Shown in pieces: positions 1 to 60,545 of a stretch of 64,000 bases of DNA. Position 1 is the first letter of the stretch. Each line of letters begins with the position of its first letter. A program made the translations under genes and the position numbers. The notes under the pieces are model-generated. The model saw nothing but the letters and a program-made list of their open reading frames with translations, ran no database searches and was not told the origin of the DNA. This DNA comes from Schmidtea polychroa (lineage: Eukaryota): positions 10,542,001-10,606,000 of the forward strand of contig CM097885.1 in the NCBI GenBank assembly GCA_044892525.1, given 5' to 3'.

Positions 1-887
1 GGCTTTAAAATGAGCTATCGTTGAATAATTATCGTTGTCGGGAACTCTGTACATTTAAATTTTAAAATATGACCTTGAAAAAATAAATGACTTTGAAAAA
101 ATAAATGACCTTGAAAAAATAAATGACCTTGACCTTGACCTTGAAAATAATATTTTGAAAAATAAATGACCTTGAAAAATGGTCTCGGTAAAACTTTAAT
201 AACGTTGCCGATGTTAATGATGATGATACCTTCTATGGCTCAATTGAAAGGTCTTAGACTACGCTTCAAAATAAGCTATCGATTAATAAATTCGGATAAT
301 GGCAACATTAATTTTTGGGATGAGAAAAAGTATGTCCCCGCCCGGCCAATTAATAATATTTTGAATAATAATAATAATTTAACGTTGAAAAGATGGTGGT
401 CATCAATTGTTAATAACTTTGTCAATATTAATGATGATGATACCTTCTATGGCTCAATTGAAAGGTCTTAGACTACGCTTCAAAATAAGCTATCGATTAA
501 TAAATTCGGATAATGGGAACATTAAATTTTGGGATGAAAAAAAGTGTGAGCCCGCCAGGCCAATTAATAATATTTTGGAAAATAATAATAATTTAACGTT
601 GAAAAGATGGTGGTCATCAATTGTTAATAACATTAAAACTATTAAAGATATATATGATACCTATAGCTCATTCGAAAGGTCTTGGACTGGGCTTTAAGAT
701 GAGGTATCATCCAATAAAATCCGTTGGTGGGAACATTAATTTTTGGGATGAAAAAAAGTGTGAGCCCGCCAGGCCAATTAATTAAAACAAAAAATTAAAA
801 AAAAAAATTTTTTTTCCCGGGGGGGGGGGGGAGGGGGTATATGTGATGCGGGGAGCTCCTGATCTGGGGAGCTCCAATCCTACTACT
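1..887. mobile_element. Probable right terminus (TIR region) of a Polinton/Maverick element
   Basis: Subterminal ~214-bp tandem repeats, a cluster of TGACCTTGA motifs (70-175), a G-run at ~819-837 and duplicated GGGGAGCTCC. The segment ends in ...CTACTACT at 887, the reverse complement of the AGTAGT-type Polinton terminus. The left part lies outside the window, so the TSD cannot be confirmed. Confidence 0.55.
190..783. repeat. ~214-bp tandem repeat, about 2.7 copies
   Basis: ATGATGATGATACCTTCTATGGCTC recurs at 217 and 431, with a diverged copy at ~655. TTTTGGGATGA...CCCGCC.GGCCAATTAAT recurs three times. Confidence 0.9.
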
Positions 888-1329: not shown

Positions 1330-1853
1330 TTATGACGTCTAACAAGTATGGATATTTCATCTGGAAAACCGCTTTTCATCAAAATATATCCGTTTGAATA
1401 CAGCAAAATATAAATTGCATTTGAAATTACCACAAAAATTGCTTTAAAATTTATTAAATTTTTTTTATCTATTTTATTATATTAATAATTTAATAAGCTT
1501 TCAAATTAATAAAAAATTAAAATTTCAGAGAAAGGAATATTTTATTTTTACATTTATTTTCAATTTTCTTCTTAATGTTCTTTTATTGTGGTATTTCAAA
1601 CGATAAATAAATCTTTCTAATCTGTATGGTCATATAATATATAAAAGATTAATCAGTATTCTGAATACAAAACATTGATATTTAAAGATCCAAATTACAT
1701 TGAAATAACTGTCGATATTTACATTATTTTGAAACACACACCATCAACCAATCAGAATCATGCATTATATATCATTTTTGCTGCAAAATTTGTTTTCATC
1801 AATTACTGATATTGCTAATAAGTTCATTAACCAAATCATGATTGTCTAATGAT
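1330..1853 (+). repeat. Dispersed repeat; inverted copy at ~8415-8695
   Basis: 1330-1462 and 1720-1853 match the reverse complement of the contiguous 8415-8695 segment. This copy carries an extra ~260 bp. Confidence 0.8.
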
Positions 1854-2368
1854 TAGCTATTTTAGCTACTAAGTTTAGCTATTTTATCATGTTGCTGCTT
1901 GAAAGATTACACTGGATATAGACAATTGATATTATTTCAAATTTCATATGGAATTATGTGTTCCAATACCTTCAGTAATTTTAATTCATTGGATTTTCTA
2001 ATATATGGTTTTATATGATAAATTTGCAATTCTGAGCGATTGTTTAAAACAATTTATTCGATATTTTCTAGCATTTGCAAATAGTCAGAAGTCATAGGAC
2101 GCCTATCTTGAATATTCATCATTTAGTTGTTTTTTAAAACACAAGATTATGATAAAACACGTGCTTCTTTGAATGTATTAAATACAGAGTAATGATCTAG
2201 TTTTTTTAGAATTTCTATAAATTTTGCCTTATAAAATTCTTTGCACGAAAAAAGTTTTATAAATTATCTGGTTTATCATTTTTTAAACATTGATTCAATT
2301 GCAACTGCCGCTACACAGACAAATTTAATTTTAACTCGAATGACATAAGCAATACGACTGAATATATT

Positions 2369-2712
2369 TGTGAGGTGTTTTCAGCTGAGAGTTAAATATT
2401 TCAAAAAATTATTAAGATAATATTTATAAATAATTGACTATTTAAAATAACTTTGAAAATAATTTTTAAACTGAAATTTTTAAAATTTTAAATTAAACAA
2501 GCTTTTTAACCGGATCATTTTTAAATAAATATATATTTTAAATACCGAAATTTTAATAAATGGTTTTTTGAAATATTTTATTTAACGCTGAAAATTTGTT
2601 TGGAAATTATACAATATTTCATTAAATAGATATTTGGAATTATGACGTTATCTTTTGAACCGGATTTAAAAAATAATTTAGAAGATGTTTTAGCAGCTTC
2701 TAATAACATTAA
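2369..2712 (+). repeat. Dispersed repeat; inverted copy at ~48340-48713
   Basis: GTGAGGTGTTTTCAGCTGAGA...TTAGCAGCTTCTAATA is matched in reverse complement at 48340-48713. Confidence 0.8.
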
Positions 2713-3285
2713 TACTAGATATACGGGTGTTGATTATATACCTATTTCGTATACATAATTCGATATGCGAAATTAGGAAGTCGGTAGAAGAGAGTAATTA
2801 ATATTTACCTATATTTCATGACGTATCTAAAAACCAACTTATGTATTTAAAAAATAATAATATTATATATATGTAACAATAGAATTTTAAATGAATCAAA
2901 TTAGCTCAGTGCGTAAATCTAGTGTAAATACGTATTGAAATATTTCTATACCTCTATTTTTTAATTTTATTTAATAATTTATTAATTATTTAATTTATTT
3001 CATCAAACAGAAAAACCAATTTCATATTTCCGTTTTCGAGTTTAATATTTTTCTTTACCTTTGTGAATCCATTGAAATCTTCTGGATCTTTTGAGTTTGT
3101 TTATATTTCCACCATCACAACAAGATAATTTAAGATTTAATATAAAATTTATTATCCCATTGTTTTGGATGCATTTCATCATTATTTAACCCAACTTAAT
3201 AGAGATAATGATATTAGTAAAAATGCAGTTAACAATTCATCTTGTTGTTTATATATAATTTGTTACATCAATCGTTTGTCTAATG

Positions 3286-3583
3286 CAGTGCTTCTCATCT
3301 GGGGCCCTAGGGCCCCAGTTGGAGCTATTTCGAAATTAATGGATTTTTAAAATTTGATAAATCATATTTTTTCTCAAGTATATACGTCGTATTTTATGTA
3401 TATTATGATAGAAACAATTTTTTAACACTATAAATATAATTCTAACCAAGATCTATAAGCAAAATTGAAATTTTTTAAGTAAGGGCTTGTAAAAAAATTT
3501 GTTAATTAATTCAAAAACTGGGACAATTTGACTTTTAAACTCTATTGTTGGTGACATAGAGTATAACATGATGAGAAGCACTG
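3286..3583. mobile_element. hAT (Charlie/Buster-type) MITE
   Basis: TIRs CAGTGCTTCTCATC...GATGAGAAGCACTG; 8-bp TSD GTCTAATG/ATCTAATG. Confidence 0.9.
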
Positions 3584-3655
3584 ATCTAATGTATTTATTA
3601 GCGTTTAAAGTGTTTTTTATGATTTTTCAATAAAACCCTTTTTAATCCTCTAATC

Positions 3656-4176
<521 letters not shown>

Positions 4177-7208: not shown

Positions 7209-8090
7209 GGTTACATGACATTTAAACACGTGACACTTTAACATGGACACACATTAACATACGACAGATTAACACCGTGACATATTAGCATAGTGACAGT
7301 TTAACATGGACACACATTAACATACGACAGATTAACACCGTGACATATTAGCATAGTGACAGTTTAACATGGACACACTTTAACATACGACAGATAAAAG
7401 ATTTTTTCGGTGCAGCTCAAAAACCGGTTGTTATAATCGCTTCCTTTATTAGCTGGAAAGAGTTAAAAAATCGAAATAAACACCTCGTTCAGACAACATA
7501 TTTAAATAACATAGTTTTTGAATGTTTTCGCAGTAATTTGTGCTTTAAAATTAAATAAGCGGTTTTCGTAAACATTATTGAATATAAAAAAATGAAACAA
7601 ATAAAACGGTCGAATGAAACTGAAGGAATCAATGATTTGAAAAAACATTAACCGAAAATTCTTTATATTTTTTAACTTTATACAATTTTAGAATTGTAAT
7701 TTTGTTGGTACTACTTAAAAAATCTGGAGTAAGAATAAGATATCTAAAACATCCCAACGTTTGTTCAAATTCTTGTCTCACACCATATTTTATTTTTATT
7801 CATATTATTGTTACTTAAAATATACTGTATCATGCAACCTATGTACATTTATTAAAGAAAACTTGAAAAAATTTAAGAAAATTCGTATGTTCAAATCAAG
7901 TTGGTAACGTTTTTAAATGCCTATATGTAGCAAATTTTAACTTTATTTAGCCTATGATCATTTCCATTTTTATCTTCCAAAATTAAAATGTGTGATAATC
8001 TGCCGTATGTTAAAGTGTGGCAATATTAAACTGCCACTATGTTAATATGTCACAGTGTTAAAATGTCGCATGTTTAAATGTCGGCACACC
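7209..8090. mobile_element. Non-autonomous DNA transposon with subterminal tandem repeats (MULE- or Merlin-like)
   Basis: GG...CC ends. ~60-bp tandem repeats at 7230-7395 are inverted at 7995-8085. Imperfect 8-bp TSD ATTCCAAT/ATGTCAAT. Confidence 0.65.
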
Positions 8091-17790: not shown

Positions 17791-17914
17791 TTATAACGTG
17801 TAAAATTTAATGTAAAATCTACTAGTTATAAAAGCTTTGAACCTAAATTGAATTTTAGGGTAAATTCGATTTTAAATTCCTGGAAAAAAATTTTATTTTG
17901 ATATATTTTATATT

Positions 17915-18260
17915 GAACCAATGAGAAGAGATTAAATGAAAATAAAAGTGAAGATTGAGTATTAGTATTTTAATATTTTTTAGGGATTCATTTGATTTAA
18001 ATGCGATTTTATTGGCTTGTTAATTACAACAAAAATTACTACAAAAATAATTCTAATATTCTCCAGGAATTATATGTCAAATATTATTTGAAAATTGAAG
18101 CACCTAAATTCCAGGAAATTTATAAAGATTATTTTTATATATATTTAAACCTTTTTGCTGCGAATAAGATATTTTCATTTCCATTAAATATATTATTTGC
18201 AGCAAAAGGCTTAAATTTTCATATAATTATTTAAAATGTAATTAATGCTGCTACCAAGAA
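17915..18260 (+). mobile_element. Old, rearranged copy of the AAT-associated fold-back element
   Basis: Contains AACCAATGAGAA, TAAATTCCAGGA, TTTGCAGCAAAAGGCTTAAATT and the tail AATGCTGCTACCAAGAAA, followed by (ATT)n. Confidence 0.75.
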
Positions 18261-18839
<579 letters not shown>

Positions 18840-27099: not shown

Positions 27100-28640
27100 T
27101 AACTATAATATTATTATATGATAACGCCAATCAAACATTCTTTTCACGATATATTTCGACAGTTTTCCTGTCATCATCAGGTGGGATATAATAACTATAT
27201 AAATTAAGGATTTTAAACAAATTTATTTATTTAAAAAAAATTTTAGTTTATTATTTTAATAAAAATATTTCATTATTTTAAAAATCATAATTAAATTATA
27301 TATTATTTTTAAAAAAACTTTTATTAATTAATTAATTTTACACACAGCAATCAATACATACAATATACAAAAAATTATTTAAAAACATTCAAAACTAAGT
27401 ATTCACTGCATTCTGCACATTATTTTTTGGATTCAATTTATCAATAACGCCTCACAAATTACACGTTCCCAATAATTATCAAAATTATTTTAATGAAATT
27501 TTAAAATAAGACAGAACTATTTTACTCTTACAGCCCTTATTATGCTCACCAATATGGGTCAATGCCTTCGGTCTACAATGTTCTTGAGCTCGAATACAGA
27601 GATGATGGGAAGTCTCTCCAATGTATGTGACATTATACCCATTACAAGTAAACTGATAAACGAGATCGGAACACAATTCGACCGGAGTTTTTGACTGATT
27701 AATAAACATATTGCGTACTTTCCATGAAGTTGACATTATCCTGTAGTTTAAATTCCCTAACTGCTTTCTTATCTTCACTTCATAATCCTTAAAACCTTCT
27801 GAGTAAGGCAATACTAAACACTAATTTAGGTTCATCATCCTTGCTCACACTATATAATTTATTTAACTCATCAGACTCACACACCTCAACAAAATAACAC
27901 CCAGATTTTCTCAAACATGGATCCTTAGGATTTTTAACAAATTTGTCAACAGTCTCTTTTACCATACTTAATAAAGAGGATTTTGAATAACCATTCTTCA
28001 TTAACAATTCAACCAATTTTTCAACACTTTTTACTGAATTTTCTAATGTAGAAGACAAAGACCATGAACGATAAATCAACCCCTTTACCATATTTCGTTT
28101 ATACTTGAATTCACAAGAACTTTCGGATGAAGTATAGAGACCAGTATCAGTTGGTTTTCTATAAATCTCTGTCTCGTAGTGTTTCTCTTTGCGTTGTATT
28201 AACAGATCCAAGAAAGCAAGTGATGATTTTTTTTACTCCGTTTCCCATGTGAATACAATGTTTTTATGTTTTTATACTCCATCGTACTCAAAATTGAATT
28301 TTTAATACACCATTCAACCCATACCTGCAAACAAAACTCATTTGTTATTTGATTCAAAGTAAATCCAATATTTCATAGTTTTTTATCCAAGGATGTTCTC
28401 CTAAGCTTCTCTGATTCCAACATTCTTCTTAACGTTCTTTTATGTATTATTTGCACATCTTTACTTGAAATACAATCACTAAGTTTCATTTTAAAAATGA
28501 ACGAAGGAATCATCTTTTCTTCTAGACAAGTCTCAAGAAAACAAATGTCTAATTCTTCTAAGTGCATTATAAATCTTCAATAATCTTTTGAATACTGAAA
28601 CTGCAGAAACATGATTTTTGAATAAATAGTTAAACATGCA
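27100..28640 (-). mobile_element. Penelope-like retroelement, internally deleted (N-terminus, RT C-terminus, GIY-YIG endonuclease, 3' pLTR)
   Basis: FLETCLEEKMIPSF (N-terminal); LAFLDLLI...IYRKPTDTGLY (RT thumb); LVYQFTCNGYNVTYIGETSHHLCIRAQEH (GIY-YIG). The RT core is missing and there is a frameshift. Confidence 0.93.
27142..27186 (-). ncRNA. Minimal type I hammerhead ribozyme of the Penelope pLTR
   Basis: The minus strand reads CAC-CUGAUGA-U-GACAG-GAAAA-CUGUC-GAAA-UAU-AUC-GUG: intact core, 5-bp stem II, palindromic mini stem III and short stem I. It lies 3' of the GIY-YIG ORF. Confidence 0.85.
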
Positions 28641-35060: not shown

Positions 35061-35280
35061 AAATTATATTTATAAAAATATGCAGACAAATTCTGGTTAT
35101 AAAATTAAAAAAAATTTTTTTTCAAAAATATCAAAGACGCTTTCACTGAAAGAAATAAAATAATAATTATAATTTAATGAATATTTATTTATTTAATGAA
35201 AATATTTATTAAATTAACATGAATTTCAATCTAGTCCTTTCAAAGAATTTAAATTTCATTGACATCAAAAAATTAGGGAA

Positions 35281-35569
<289 letters not shown>

Positions 35570-35621
35570 TAAAACAATAAAATGATAATTTAAGCCTTTT
35601 GCTGCAAATAATGTATTTAAT

Positions 35622-35660
35622 GAAAGAATTTTCGACTATACGATAGTCCTTGTCAATCTC
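35622..35660 (-). ncRNA. Hammerhead-like motif, U3-A8 variant (left arm)
   Basis: Reverse complement of 35946-35984. Confidence 0.6.
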
Positions 35661-35945
35661 CTGGAATTTAGCAATGTTCTTCTTCAAAATACCCTTCAAT
35701 CTTTCTTTTATTTCCTTTCTCTTATTTCTCATTGGTTGTAAATATAATGAATTGTTTTACTAAAAACTTTTAAATTTTTTTTTTTTTTTTTTAAAAAATA
35801 AAAAAATTTTAAAAGTTTTAAAAAAAAAAAAAAAAAAAGTTTTTAGTAAAACAATTCATTATATTTACAACCAATGAGAATTAAGAGAAAGGAAATAAAA
35901 GAAAGATTGAAGGGTATTTTGAAGAAGAACATTGCTAAATTCCAG

Positions 35946-35984
35946 GAGATTGACAAGGACTATCGTATAGTCGAAAATTCTTTC
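35946..35984 (+). ncRNA. Minimal hammerhead-like ribozyme motif, U3-A8 variant
   Basis: GAGA-UUGACAA-G-GACUAU-CGU-AUAGUC-GAAA-AUUC-UUUC: 6-bp stem II, GAAA, palindromic AAUU stem III, stem I GAGA/UUUC. Confidence 0.65.
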
Positions 35985-36072
35985 ATTAAATACATTATTT
36001 GCAGCAAAAGGCTTAAATTATCATTTTATTGTTTTAAATAATAAATGCTGCTACCAAGCAATCATCATTTTA

Positions 36073-36115
<43 letters not shown>

Positions 36116-38947: not shown

Positions 38948-40378
38948 TCAGTCACTTTTGGAAAATATGTTGAAATGGAATTTCAACAATGAACCAGCCT
39001 TTCTTTTTAGAATGGCTTGAACATCTCCATGGAGTCCAGATATTCTGGCAGCATTATCATAACCTTGAGCTCTGCACATCATTATGTCAAATCCATCACT
39101 TTCTAGATTTTCTAAATTGGTTGAACTGAGGTCATCAGCTTTTTTCCTCTTTAAAGGGAAAAATCTTAGAAACACTTCTCTCACTTCAACATTTCCATTG
39201 TATATTTTCACATATCTGATCACCTCAGACATCTGGTCAGTGTGTGACATATCAGGTGTGCTGTCAGACATAATTCCAAAATACCTCGCGGCCTTTATAT
39301 CATTGATAAAAATCTCCTTCACATGATTTTCCAGGACACTTTTAAATTCATTCTGAGTTTCTGGTGAAAGGTAAGATACGGATGCTTTTACTGTGCATCT
39401 CGTATGCTTCAATCTCATTATGTGCTCTTTCAACATAGTGCCATATTTATAAAGCATCTTAACCATCTCAAGAAAGTTTCCTTTATTCAATGAAGATTCA
39501 TTTTCTTTATGGTCACGAAATGCCAGATTTCGTTTCGCAAGAAACATTGTTATATCAAGCAACCTGTGCAAGATATCCCTCCATTTCTTTTTTCTCTTGT
39601 CCATTACAGCAACACTTTCGGCATCAATTGTTTTGTGCAGCTTTAGACCTGCTGCCAATGTTTTATATTTTTCAAGACAACATAGATAGTCATCCGATAT
39701 CTCATGATCATGCAATTTTGTGCTCAGCTTACACTACTTCTGAAACCCGGTGACAAATTTGGATGATTTTTCCGTTATATTAACTGCAAAAAGTCTGTAG
39801 CAAAAGTAGTATAATCACTGACGAGCGAGTAAACCATCCGCAGTATTTTCTCACCAATTGACAACGTCTTGTAAAACCATTTTTTTGACAGCTGGCGCAC
39901 ATCTCCTTTAGTTTTTGCACCTTGCCTTGTCACATCACAGAAAAGCTCATCCTTGTTCTTAAAAGAATAACTTCCTTTTGTGACAATTTCAACTCGAAAA
40001 CTATCTGGAACTGGTACATTCCAGAAAGAAGCATCAGATAAAAGATTCCAATTTTTCTCATTAATTTGACTCAGCACATTTAAAATATCATAGCTACAAA
40101 ACATTTCCAGAATTCATTTCTGTTTCAACTTCACCCACTGTTATTTCATTTATGTCTGAATCGATCACCTCTATTTTCGGCTCTAGTTTCTCTTTTGAAG
40201 AATCAGTTTCAATTGTAAATTGTGGAACGTCTTTTGATGAACCTCGGCCATCACTTGGTCTCTTGACATATTGAAGCATGAAACCCTGTTGTGATTTTAG
40301 TGATTCACATCTTTTCTTGTTTTCTTTTTGCTGCTCACATCTACTAGACCTCTTTGATTTGTGCACTCCATGTGGCAT
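38948..40378 (-). mobile_element. hAT transposase pseudogene (ZMYM1/ZNF862, DUF4371, Tip100-like), 3'-truncated
   Basis: Three frameshifted ORFs. Motifs: LAFRDH...NKGNFLEMV, YLSPETQNEF, ARYFGIMSDSTPDMSHTDQMSEVIRYV, CRAQGYDNAA. GGTGTCACCC subterminal repeats at ~40904-40930. Confidence 0.93.
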
Positions 40379-42927: not shown

Positions 42928-43199
42928 ACCCTGATTCAGACTTCATTTTGATTTGATTTGTTCACTTATAATTAAATCGATGCCATTATTTATAGATTGT
43001 TATAATTAATTGTTATTGTTTACTTTTTACATAATATTTTAATTTGTGAATGCAATGTACCTCAGGATCAATGTAATGGCTGGAGTTAAAAGGTTATGAT
43101 GTTCTGTTTCGGACCTCTTAACAATCATAATATCTTCTTACTGCTAAAATAAAATCTATTTGAATATATGAAAATAAATTTAATAATTTTGTTTTTCAG

Positions 43200-44393
43200 A
43201 TAACATTTCGTAATGGGAGCAAACACCATGTTGATCTTTGTCAAAACATTGGACATTGGAAAGTTACTCCCCATGCTCAATTTATAAACTGCTTCTCCTA
43301 CAACATTAAATCTGAATTTATTGAAGAAGTGACAACCATAGAACTCTATTTATATCTAAATGAAGAGACCAATGTTAGTCGCTGCATTGACTGTTTTATT
43401 TCTAATGTCAAATCACAATTGTCCGGGGCTCTTTTAGTAATTCATAAAAGTAATTCTTTCCCTAATATTAATCAAGAAGCTATAAATTTGCAACCGGGTA
43501 CACTTACTGAGGTTCGTTTGAAAACGTTCTTCAATGTTATGAAAACCGCTCCGTATGGAAGATGCAAACCCAATACACCAAGCAACTTGGAAATGGGAAA
43601 CGAAACTTACAGCTATACTGAACACCTTTGTAAAGAAAAGACTATTCAACTGGAAATTAATAAAAAATGCCACTGTAACGCTATTGAATATCCTGTAGTG
43701 AATAGTAACCTATCCTTCTGTAGTGCTTTACCGACTTTTATAAACTTTGGAAGTTGTGAAACAAATAGTCACGACAAAGAACAAGAAAAATGTTTTGAAG
43801 AAATTAAAACTTCACTAAAACGATTAGAGTGCAAATCGAGTGTGACAGTTCTTTATCACAATGATATTATTGACACATGCTTTCTGCCATGTGAATATTA
43901 CAGTTATGAGTCGGACAGATCTATTAGTACTTGGCCAACAAAGTCTTGGCAATTGACTTGGTTGAACTCGAGTCGAGGCTCGAATGTTCGCAGTAAGAAG
44001 GAGCTAAATCCTTATAAAATTGCCGCTAAATACTTAAAAGAAGGCAGAGAGGAGAAAGCAATTGAAATATTAAACAAGCAAGATATATTAGAAAGTAAAC
44101 TAATTGCGGTTGTAATTAACAGACCGAATAAGAATCTTCATCGAGTCGAAGAAAAAGAGGTTTTGTCTTTGACAAGTTTCCTAAGTCAACTGGGAGGGCT
44201 ATTCAGTATTTGGATTGGTTTGACATTGATAAGCATTGTGGAAATTATCGAACTTCTCATGAGAATTTCTGAAAAGGTTTTCGACAGATGCTGTAAAACT
44301 CGTCGCCTATCCCTGATGAATGTTGGCACTCCAGAAACGAATGATCATTCGAAAAAGTATTTTCTCAATTACACTTCTGTGACAAATTTGTGA
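43200..44393 (+). CDS. DEG/ENaC (amiloride-sensitive sodium channel family) terminal exon: extracellular domain, TM2 and C-tail
   Basis: Acceptor TTTTCAG at 43199 and an open frame to TGA at 44393. Contains NCFSYN, PYGRC, the Cys-rich thumb (C.C...C.LPC), WP, and TM2 LTSFLSQLGGLFSIWIGLTLISIVEIIE. 5' exons were not identified. Confidence 0.93.
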   Translation: MTFRNGSKHHVDLCQNIGHWKVTPHAQFINCFSYNIKSEFIEEVTTIELYLYLNEETNVSRCIDCFISNVKSQLSGALLVIHKSNSFPNINQEAINLQPGTLTEVRLKTFFNVMKTAPYGRCKPNTPSNLEMGNETYSYTEHLCKEKTIQLEINKKCHCNAIEYPVVNSNLSFCSALPTFINFGSCETNSHDKEQEKCFEEIKTSLKRLECKSSVTVLYHNDIIDTCFLPCEYYSYESDRSISTWPTKSWQLTWLNSSRGSNVRSKKELNPYKIAAKYLKEGREEKAIEILNKQDILESKLIAVVINRPNKNLHRVEEKEVLSLTSFLSQLGGLFSIWIGLTLISIVEIIELLMRISEKVFDRCCKTRRLSLMNVGTPETNDHSKKYFLNYTSVTNL

Positions 44394-45684: not shown

Positions 45685-47076
45685 TACCTCTAAAATCTCT
45701 AAAGAAATGCGCGCTAATTGAATGTCAAATAAATTATAATTATTTTGATTAACTGCTACCGGTTTATTTTTATTCCAGTGTTTAATTTTAATTTCCGGAA
45801 ATATAGTTCACTTGTTTTAATTTATATTCCAATTTATAAGTCTCACTATTGCCAAAAATACAATCTGCCAATTTTGTCTAATGAATTATGAATAAATTTA
45901 TTTTATATTTCTTTTATTCTGATTAATTGCATTATGTATTTATTTAGCGTTTAAATTTATGTTATTTTAATTAGTTATTGAATAGGAGGTTTCTTATGCA
46001 GCACATTAAGTATTAAATATTTATGAGTTATATGCCAATAAAATATAAAATCTATTGAGAAATTCAGGATATTATCGGAATATATCAGCGACTGAATTTA
46101 GGAAGTAGGAAATGATATACTTACTGTATTATTTTGTTAACTATTGTGAATTTAGTATTTATCACGTCCATAATATAACAATTTTCCAATAATTTATTAT
46201 TAAAACAAACAATATATTGAGGAGTATTTTTAAGTGTCAAATATTGATATTTTCAGACTGGTAGATTTCAAACTTCATACATTCAATTTCGCAAGATATT
46301 TTATATATTTTGAACTAAATAGAAAATTACGTAACATTATGAAATCCCTTAGAAATGTAATTGAATAATAAAGAGCTTGAATGTCCTTTCGTGAAGCCCA
46401 CCCTCATTCATACATATTTAATTAATTATTATTATAACTATTTTTGCAATAGTTGTAATAATAATACAAATTTACTCAATATAGATATCACTTTAGTTTT
46501 CTTTAATTCAAAGAAATAATCTGCAAAACTGAATGAAAATAGGCAATTTGAAAAATTTATTGAATTTCCTAAATTCACGCATGAATACTCAAGCAATTAA
46601 TTTAATTAAAAATCGATCCTGAAAAATCAATTCAAATTTTATTTTTGATGTTCTTCTGATTTCGGTGAGGGGGGGGGGCTAGGATGATTTAGATCTAGGG
46701 AAACTGAATACATATAGTTTGTATTGATTGTATTATAGTTAGTCAAAAATAATATAATATATGTTTGTAATTTATTATTAATTTCAGGTTATAATAAAAT
46801 TTTAAATTAATACAGGAAACATAAAATTAGAATTAATCAAAATCAAATATTATATATGGAAACCAAAAAAAAAATCAAATTTTATTTTAATAAAAGTCCA
46901 GTTGGCGTCTTGCCGAAGGGGAGATAATTCTCACCCTTATGAGATCTGTAGCTTTTTAGGATTTGATCTTCGGATGCTGGAGATAAGGACTCCTGCATCA
47001 AACGTTTTCTCCAGAAGACTTCAATCGAGCAGGATATGGAATAAACATTGCGGGCCATGGCTCTCCTGAAGCTCCG

Positions 47077-47355
47077 GACAGTGGCTTTAATCATAATTAT
47101 ACTTCTGTAATTATAGCTTTGGGGACATCATCATCTTATTTGGGCGACAGTGGCTTTATTCATAATTATACTTCTGTAATTATAACTTTGGGGACATCAT
47201 CATCTTATTTGGGCGACAGTGGCTTTATTCATAATTATATTTCTGTAATTATAACTTTGGGGACATCATCATCTTATTTGGGCGACAGTGGCTTTATTCA
47301 TAATTATACTTCTGTAATTATAGCTTTGGGGACATCATCGTCTTATTTGGGCGAT
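47077..47355. repeat. 69-bp minisatellite, about 4 copies
   Basis: GACAGTGGCTTTATTCATAATTATACTTCTGTAATTATA.CTTTGGGGACATCATCATCTTATTTGGGC repeated. Confidence 0.97.
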
Positions 47356-59164: not shown

Positions 59165-59330
59165 TATTATCATTGTTATAAGATAAGCCTTTTGCTACAA
59201 AGTATGTACAAATGAAAAAAGATTCGATCATTAGATAAACCTTTTCGAGTTTATAACGATTATTTAATAATCGAAAGTTTTTTTCATTTAATGCATATTT
59301 TGCTGAAAATGGCTTATCTTATCGATTGTT
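59165..59330. mobile_element. Diverged fold-back copy next to (ATT)n
   Basis: ATAAGATAAGCCTTTTGCT...AATGAAAAAA is inverted as TTTTTTCATT...TGGCTTATCTTAT. Stem GATTAT-TTA-ATAATC-GAAA at 59258-59276. Confidence 0.7.
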
Positions 59331-59340
59331 ATTATTGTTA

Positions 59341-60156: not shown

Positions 60157-60545
<389 letters not shown>

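What the first reader, a model, noticed from the sequence alone, without database searches (positions are those of the whole stretch)
35946..35984. Variant hammerhead ribozyme (U3-A8 core, loopless AAUU stem III) in the fold-back element
Seen: GAGA UUGACAA G GACUAU CGU AUAGUC GAAA AUUC UUUC, present at 35946 (+), 35622 (-) and 60245 (+). Known: hammerhead positions 3 and 8 form a Watson-Crick pair, so UUGACAA is the compensatory equivalent of CUGANGA and would be missed by CUGANGA searches. Stem III (AA/UU with no loop) can only form between two copies, implying an obligate dimer. Inferred: cleavage after UUC at 35980. Stem I may extend through UGC(U)AAAU/AUUUGCA. Activity is untested.
Basis: partly seen in the sequence, partly recalled or inferred. 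Interest (0 to 1): 0.85.

Follow-up and report, generated by a model that had tools for sequence, protein, structure and literature searches.

The report
Penelope retrotransposon's minimal hammerhead ribozyme
This 39-base motif sits in the end repeat of a young, very abundant Penelope-type retrotransposon and is very likely a small self-cutting RNA of a variant already published for these elements, so it is real but ordinary; its cutting is untested.

Summary
The motif is real: three complete copies and a fourth, partial one in the window (none in shuffles), and 1,716 copies with an intact core in the genome. It lies in the pseudo-LTR of a Penelope-like retroelement. A full copy elsewhere has two hammerheads in direct orientation, 3,076 nt apart, around an 856-aa reverse transcriptase/GIY-YIG ORF. 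Related elements carry the same fold at the same place, with C-G, U-A or A-U at positions 3-8 and a palindromic stem III in 13 of 13 aligned. The scan also noted this variant on other DNA (e1-7352862). Corrections: the fold-back pair cannot be the dimer, because sense and antisense arms zip into one hairpin, and the distal stem I extension is not conserved. Genomic copies start at the ribozyme's 5' edge (36 of 92) and run past the cleavage site, so uncut RNA is likely the template. Cleavage was not tested and no RNA reads could be laid. Verdict: new member of a known kind; low interest.

The parts
35946..35984 (+). Minimal type I hammerhead motif, U3-A8 core, extra G before stem II, palindromic AAUU stem III; predicted cleavage after 35980
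35622..35660 (-). Identical motif in the inverted arm
60245..60283 (+). Identical motif in a second insertion
60209..60243 (-). Fourth, partial motif: starts at U3 and lacks the 5' strand of stem I
35804..36074 (+). 5'-truncated pseudo-LTR copy of the Penelope-like element, with tail
   Evidence: 95.6% to the full element's repeat over 275 columns
35562..35789 (-). Inverted 5'-truncated pseudo-LTR copy, without tail
60243..60373 (+). Short copy that begins at the inferred RNA start (37 nt before the cleavage site) and ends in the tail
60157..60243 (-). Inverted short copy, without tail
35871..35875 (+). CCAAT box-like site, 73 nt before the pile-up of 5' ends; its ATG also opens a 55-codon frame over the ribozyme. 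Promoter role inferred
35944..35950 (+). Inferred transcription start zone at the 5' edge of stem I
   Evidence: 36 of 92 copies begin here, 0 in the 18 nt upstream
36045..36074 (+). First ten codons of the element's ORF, equal to the optional 30-nt tail
35279..35570 (.). (ATT)n microsatellite flanking the insertion; shorter runs flank the other ends

Best explanation
The motif lies in the pseudo-LTR of a young Penelope-like retroelement (856-aa reverse transcriptase plus GIY-YIG endonuclease) and is very likely a minimal hammerhead ribozyme that would cut weakly after C35980, and only when paired with a second same-sense copy through AAUU. Shown: the window holds only 5'-truncated, head-to-head pseudo-LTR copies set in (ATT)n; full elements elsewhere carry two same-sense hammerheads about 3.1 kb apart; the fold is kept by compensatory changes in related elements. 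Inferred: transcription starts in the upstream pseudo-LTR at the 5' edge of stem I, so a full transcript has one hammerhead at its 5' end and one near its 3' end, and these two (or two transcripts) supply the dimer, probably with help from the element's protein. Inferred: reverse transcription starts 55-95 nt downstream of the cleavage site on uncut RNA. Started at the 3' copy it gives long insertions. Started at the equivalent site of the 5' copy it gives the many 100-130-nt insertions that begin at the ribozyme. Cleavage is therefore likely to process or retire part of the RNA pool rather than to define the ends of the inserted DNA.
For: Full element L031: hammerheads at 1419 and 4495, both +, around ORF 1514-4084; RVT_1 E 2e-14 (above cut-off) and GIY-YIG E 1e-5 (25.9 bits, cut-off 22.6). 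16 of the 30 best N-terminal matches keep an 856-aa frame. 1,716 intact cores, control 0. In 10 of 13 metagenomic relatives whose 3' flank I read (of 43 loci) a minimal hammerhead follows the ORF. 96.5% of 143 cells pair, against 61.4 +/- 3.2% shuffled (0 of 500) and 29-47% for slid controls. An older subfamily in the same genome has G-C for A-U at stem II pair 2. 13 of 15 short fold-backs have the tail on exactly one arm and none on both, as described in PMC8557442. 5' ends: 36 of 92 at -37..-31, 0 at -55..-38. 107 of 111 cores continue past the site. Protein-assisted cleavage, uncut template and internal RT start are shown for another element in PMC11167929.
Against: No cleavage assay and no RNA reads. 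Nearest-neighbour energies do not favour the double hammerhead: -7.6 kcal/mol against 2 x -6.2 for monomers; an off-pathway dimer through stem II is -20.3; the AAUU duplex is +2.2 against -2.5 for AGCU. Two of five whole-structure measures were not beyond the shuffles (50 and 77 of 500). The 13 rows fall into about five related groups and were picked for having a core. Within the young family variation is almost nil and includes stem-breaking changes (3 of the first 100 cores have an unpaired stem II base). No copies pile up at the cleavage site. Published minimal hammerheads cut poorly even as dimers (PMC4209133). The RNA start is inferred from DNA ends only.
Confidence: 0.85

Rival explanations
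1. The motif descends from the same hammerhead but is a hypomorphic or non-cutting remnant in this family. It is kept as an RNA structure or protein-binding or promoter element at the transcript's 5' end, or simply carried along.
For: Weakest possible stem III. No genomic ends at the site. Hammerhead mutants did not impair insertion in vitro and no RNA-seq reads ended at the site for the anole element (PMC11167929). Whole clades of these elements thrive without hammerheads (PMC8557442).
Against: All catalytic positions (U4, G5, A6, A9, G12, A13, A14, A15.1, U16.1) are invariant in 13 of 13 and position 17 is never G. The 3-8 and 15.2-16.2 pairs covary, which a passive hairpin would not require.
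Confidence: 0.1
2. The two arms of the fold-back insertion itself form the active dimer, as a self-contained non-autonomous ribozyme element.
For: Two copies lie 294 nt apart in the window, and opposite-strand pairs are very common: 10 of 16 long regions had only an inverted partner.
Against: One transcript carries one sense and one antisense copy. These pair into a hairpin of about 225 bp (z -41) that sequesters the core. Many inverted arms are broken inside the core.
Confidence: 0.02
3. The resemblance to a hammerhead is chance, or a by-product of a short upstream reading frame (55 codons) that overlies it.
For: No Rfam hit. Monomer folding z about 0. A 55-codon frame covers the motif and ends two stops before the main ATG. 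The older subfamily differs from it by 6- and 18-nt indels.
Against: The same fold sits at the same place in relatives with unrelated stem sequences. The frame's ATG is inside the CCAAT site and upstream of the inferred RNA start. The frame is interrupted or lacks its ATG in the older copies read.
Confidence: 0.03

Closest known systems
Minimal hammerheads (min-HHR) of metazoan Penelope-like elements, including the U3-A8 variant of Schistosoma mansoni Cercyon elements (Cervera & de la Peña 2014, PMC4209133)
   Same: Type I core, no loop 3, palindromic 15.2-16.2, extra base between 9 and 10.1, G10.1-C11.1, long stem II, 4-bp stem I, U3-A8, direct pairs about 3 kb apart, opposite-strand pairs 100-700 bp apart, thousands of solo copies. 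Their Fig. S3 lists U3-A8 rows, one marked as element-associated, and rows with A15.2-U16.2.
   Different: A different host genome and element family. U3-A8 together with AAUU and a 6-bp stem II with a 3-nt loop is not among the Fig. S3 rows I saw (part 2 of 3 plus passages). Copies here are nearly identical, as they report only for D. virilis.
Poseidon element of Anolis carolinensis, PAc (Frangieh et al. 2024, PMC11167929)
   Same: Hammerhead at the pseudo-LTR/ORF junction, insertion at ATT-rich DNA, two clusters of 3' ends that define an optional tail, no footprint of cut RNA.
   Different: PAc has C3-G8 and its ORF starts inside stem II; here the ORF starts 64 nt after the site. This protein has a cysteine linker before the endonuclease, which Penelope/Poseidon lack.
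Natural C3-G8 to U3-A8 core variants (Perreault et al. 2011, PMC3088659)
   Same: Same compensatory core change, reported there as active in vitro.
   Different: Their examples were not tied to this element; here the swap is combined with a loopless stem III.
Non-LTR retrozymes (bioRxiv 10.64898/2026.07.22.740005)
   Same: Short non-coding derivatives of pseudo-LTRs that carry type I hammerheads (first part only).
   Different: Retrozymes are head-to-tail tandem arrays. The window copies are solo or head-to-head pairs and cannot form same-sense dimers in cis.

Membership tests
Minimal type I hammerhead of Penelope-like elements | Conserved core (3-UGAN-8-A, GAAA, UH) with a Watson-Crick 3-8 pair | tested here: met
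   3-8 paired in 13 of 13
Minimal type I hammerhead of Penelope-like elements | Stem II with G10.1-C11.1 and an unpaired base between 9 and 10.1 | tested here: met
   G-C in 13 of 13, three further pairs covary; extra G at 35957
Minimal type I hammerhead of Penelope-like elements | Short stem I closing the motif | tested here: met
   4 bp including one G-U; 90% of cells paired and all four pairs change on both sides
Minimal type I hammerhead of Penelope-like elements | Palindromic, loopless stem III | tested here: met
   AAUU here; AGCU, ACGU, AUAU in relatives; 13 of 13
Minimal type I hammerhead of Penelope-like elements | Located in both pseudo-LTRs of an element | tested here: met
   L031 at 1419 and 4495; also L046; 2 of 16 regions had the direct pair
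Minimal type I hammerhead of Penelope-like elements | Self-cleavage as a dimer | not testable with these tools
   Needs an assay; computed energies do not favour the dimer
Penelope-like elements with C-terminal endonuclease | Single ORF with reverse transcriptase and C-terminal GIY-YIG domain | tested here: met
   homologues share RVT_1 and often GIY-YIG
Penelope-like elements with C-terminal endonuclease | Pseudo-LTRs, 5' truncation, inverted copies, optional 30-40-nt tail, microsatellite targets | tested here: met
   against PMC8557442
Penelope-like elements with C-terminal endonuclease | Clade (Penelope/Poseidon, Neptune, Nematis, Hydra) | tested here: inconclusive
   Linker C-x4-C-x6/7-C and a CxxC...H...H motif are present, which argues against Penelope/Poseidon and Hydra as described; no reference sequences were held, so no tree was built
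Non-LTR retrozyme | Head-to-tail tandem units, each with a hammerhead | tested here: not met
   Window copies are head-to-head pairs
Rfam hammerhead families | Score at or above the gathering threshold | tested here: not met
   0 matches in the window

The most novel reading that the evidence does not exclude
The genome's thousands of short copies are an in vivo record of how these elements transpose: the RNA starts at the ribozyme's first base, reverse transcription primes inside the 5' copy as readily as inside the 3' copy, and cut RNA is almost never inserted. The hammerhead would then act as a dimer- and protein-gated switch that removes RNA from the transposing pool, a self-limiting device and not a maturation step. 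The clade also swaps the 3-8 pair among C-G, U-A and A-U.
Probability: 0.25. Interest if true: 0.45.

Novelty: new member of a known kind. Interest (0 to 1): 0.17.

Why it matters
Little by itself: the variant, its dimer logic and its setting have been in print since 2014. What is useful is the family. It is young, has intact full-length copies and over 4,000 end fragments whose 5' and 3' ends can be mapped, so it is good material for the open question of what the hammerhead does for Penelope-like elements. The sharp pile-up of 5' ends at the ribozyme's edge, and the lack of ends at the cleavage site, agree with the one in vitro study of such an element and could be checked with RNA end mapping.

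Tried and rejected
Rfam scan of the window: nothing. RNA evidence: no RNA holder listed on record among 16 runs, and no reads were laid, so expression, RNA ends, splicing and circular forms are open. Search for other U3-A8 families in the genome: 72 matches against 34 for the control, mostly chance; about 8 belonged to an older subfamily of the same element, and two recurrent look-alike groups (for example L142/L166 and L152/L169) lacked the stems or lay in other repeats. Insertions starting at the cleavage site: 3 of 92 rows (2 independent). A genome-wide pattern gave 107 matches. Of the 30 inspected, 22 were inversion junctions, T-run slippage or internal deletions; of the 8 with unrelated flank, 2 began in the T run at the site and 6 at +4 to +10. 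So no enrichment was seen. Distal stem I extension: rejected. Intron acceptor at the AG just before stem I, as in D. virilis: no short upstream exon precedes the copies that start there, so a transcription start is preferred, but splicing was not tested on RNA. 55-codon upstream frame: probably incidental. Lünse, Weinberg & Breaker (RNA Biol 14:1499; PMC5785218) is not held; I saw only its title in reference lists, and it may list these exact variants. No covariance model was built.

Full report
Observation. A 27-nt core pattern finds four exact matches, the fourth at 60243 (-), against none in 100 shuffles. The fourth lacks the 5' strand of stem I. By standard hammerhead numbering (recalled) the motif is type I: 4-bp stem I, U3-U4-G5-A6-C7-A8-A9, one extra G, a 6-bp stem II closed by G10.1-C11.1, G12-A13-A14, AAUU, C17 at 35980. 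Rfam does not detect it, and it folds no better than its shuffles (z -0.24 to 0.38 for three spans).

What it belongs to. The window (16-31% G+C per 2 kb) lies in G000, a 781-Mb assembly; an amiloride-sensitive channel ORF in the window suggests an animal, and I did not determine the host. A 176-nt query gave 40 full-length identical matches among 40 candidates scored of 538. Their upstream flanks ended in an ORF, and one downstream flank began one. Of 16 long regions fetched, 2 had two hammerheads in direct orientation, 10 had only an inverted partner and 4 had one motif. L031 is complete: hammerheads at 1419 and 4495 (3,076 nt apart) around an 856-aa ORF with RVT_1 and GIY-YIG domains. 16 of the 30 best matches to its N-terminus keep an 856-aa frame, so the family is young. 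The genome has 1,716 exact cores and 4,240 exact copies of a 32-nt tag just downstream, both with control 0. The window's insertions match only this element's end repeat, at 95-100%. They are head-to-head, 5'-truncated pseudo-LTR pairs in (ATT)n. The protein has a C-x4-C-x6/7-C linker and a CxxC...H...H motif; the clade is unresolved.

Is the fold conserved? Within the young family there is almost no variation, so I used relatives. A protein search gave 295 homologues among 8,000 candidates scored. An alignment of the query with 25 of them retrieved 43 metagenome loci. I read the 3' flanks of 13: 10 have a minimal hammerhead 70-435 nt after the end of the ORF match, 7 with C3-G8 and 3 with A3-U8; one more has a damaged core and two lack the region. 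An older subfamily in G000 keeps U3-A8 and has G-C for A-U at the second pair of stem II. On an alignment of 13 motifs (this one, 2 older, 10 metagenomic; I dropped one older copy with a deletion and two motifs of other families with a longer stem III from the first alignment), 96.5% of 143 cells pair against 61.4 +/- 3.2% in shuffles (0 of 500) and 29-47% with partners slid. The 3-8 pair holds in 13 of 13 and 15.2-16.2 in 13 of 13. Two measures were not beyond the shuffles (50 and 77 of 500). The rows form about five related groups and were chosen for having a core; six metagenomic rows also had to pass a stem filter. This is good but not independent-sample evidence.

The dimer. The fold-back cannot supply it: a transcript across 35575-36030 holds one sense and one antisense copy and folds into a single long hairpin (-318.5 kcal/mol, z -41). 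The natural partner is the other pseudo-LTR of a full element, or another transcript. Computed energies are unfavourable: -7.6 kcal/mol for the double hammerhead against -6.2 per monomer, -20.3 for an off-pathway dimer, and +2.2 for the AAUU duplex alone. Weak or protein-assisted activity is the expectation. The proposed distal stem I is mismatched in one older copy and absent or broken in three.

What the copy ends say. From the first 100 tag matches on contig C1 (regions and the window) I obtained 92 distinct copies; the two arms of a fold-back count separately. With gapped extension, 5' ends relative to the cleavage site were: 27 beyond -56, 0 at -55..-38, 36 at -37..-31, 23 at -30..-14, 3 at -13..-1, 3 at 0 (two from one duplicated segment), 0 at +1..+10. 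Among the 52 not scored as inverted, 13 start at -37..-31 and none at -55..-38. The step is sharp (the bins were chosen after seeing the data). It sits 73 nt after a CCAAT site; CCAAT or TATA-like sites lie 35-126 nt before the core in 5 of the 10 relatives. I infer a transcription start at 35944-35950. 3' ends form two clusters, about -9..-1 and +24..+31 from the ATG (50 and 42 of 92 fall before and after the ATG; a few are alignment artefacts). 13 of 15 short fold-backs have the tail on one arm only. That sample is conditioned on a downstream tag, so I also took all 111 distinct cores in held G000 loci: 107 continue past the site, 2 more continue with a deletion and 2 stop near it (still biased, since many loci were picked by downstream sequence). 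A genome-wide test for copies that start at the site showed no pile-up. Uncut RNA is thus the likely template, and the short copies fit reverse transcription primed inside the 5' copy and run to the RNA's start.

Comparison with print. Cervera & de la Peña 2014 (PMC4209133; I read parts 1-2 of 4 of the text, passages and part 2 of 3 of supplementary file 2; file 1 could not be searched) describe minimal hammerheads in pseudo-LTRs, the unpaired base before stem II, palindromic 15.2-16.2, the U3-A8 variant with about 1,300 hits in one genome, direct pairs about 3 kb apart, opposite-strand pairs 100-700 bp apart, and low activity only as dimers. Perreault et al. 2011 (PMC3088659; passages and section 8) report natural U3-A8. 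Frangieh et al. 2024 (PMC11167929; parts 1-2 of 4) show internal RT starts that explain the tail, preference for ATT, a protein-assisted hammerhead and an uncut template. Craig et al. 2021 (PMC8557442; author name recalled; passages) describe inverted truncated copies, one-sided tails and microsatellite bias. I also saw passages of PMC6765202, PMC6466107 and PMC2377424 and part 1 of 5 of bioRxiv 10.64898/2026.07.22.740005. The term A3-U8 did not occur in two searches or in the Fig. S3 rows seen, but the paper most likely to hold it was not available, so I do not claim that it is new. The scan noted a U3-A8 Penelope hammerhead on other DNA; no look-alike by sequence was found.

Verdict. Observation confirmed; interpretation right about the ribozyme class and the need for a dimer, wrong or unsupported about the fold-back as its unit, the stem I extension and novelty. 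It is a new member of a known kind. Cleavage, RNA start and expression remain untested. Interest 0.17.

Noticed in passing
window 27145-27183 (-): A second minimal hammerhead with a canonical C3-G8 core and a 6-nt palindromic stem III, from another family; a matching pattern has 4,794 hits in G000 against 34 for the control. It lies about 350 nt beyond a reverse-transcriptase-like fragment at 27527-28232 (-).
   Followed up: partly
L101:2044, L107:2159, L114:2307: Three related elements in metagenome contigs have an A3-U8 core with ACGU stem III, a third Watson-Crick solution at 3-8.
   Followed up: partly
window 35874-36041 (+): A 55-codon frame overlies the hammerhead and ends TAA TAA directly before the main ATG, in the same frame. 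The older subfamily differs by indels of 6 and 18 nt. Probably upstream of the RNA start in the 5' repeat; translation untested.
   Followed up: partly
window 17908-18274 and 59178-59336: Older decayed relics of the same or a sister family, both apparently fold-backs with eroded or deleted cores.
   Followed up: partly
L260, L261: In a duplicated segment, sequence from the start of the ORF is joined directly to the first base after the predicted cleavage site; a single event, possibly a template jump onto cut RNA, possibly chance.
   Followed up: partly
L031:700-960: A fold-back of the C3-G8 family sits just upstream of the full element, separated by (AAT)n; both families appear to target the same microsatellites.
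   Followed up: no
window 43164-44390 (+): A 409-codon open frame matching the amiloride-sensitive sodium channel family, PF00858, E 5e-31.
   Followed up: partly
window 38951-39733 (-): A 261-codon open frame that looks like a hAT-type transposase fragment (label recalled, not tested).
   Followed up: no
window 175-816, 7230-7418, 47008-47352: Short tandem arrays with units of 214, 63 and 69 nt.
   Followed up: no
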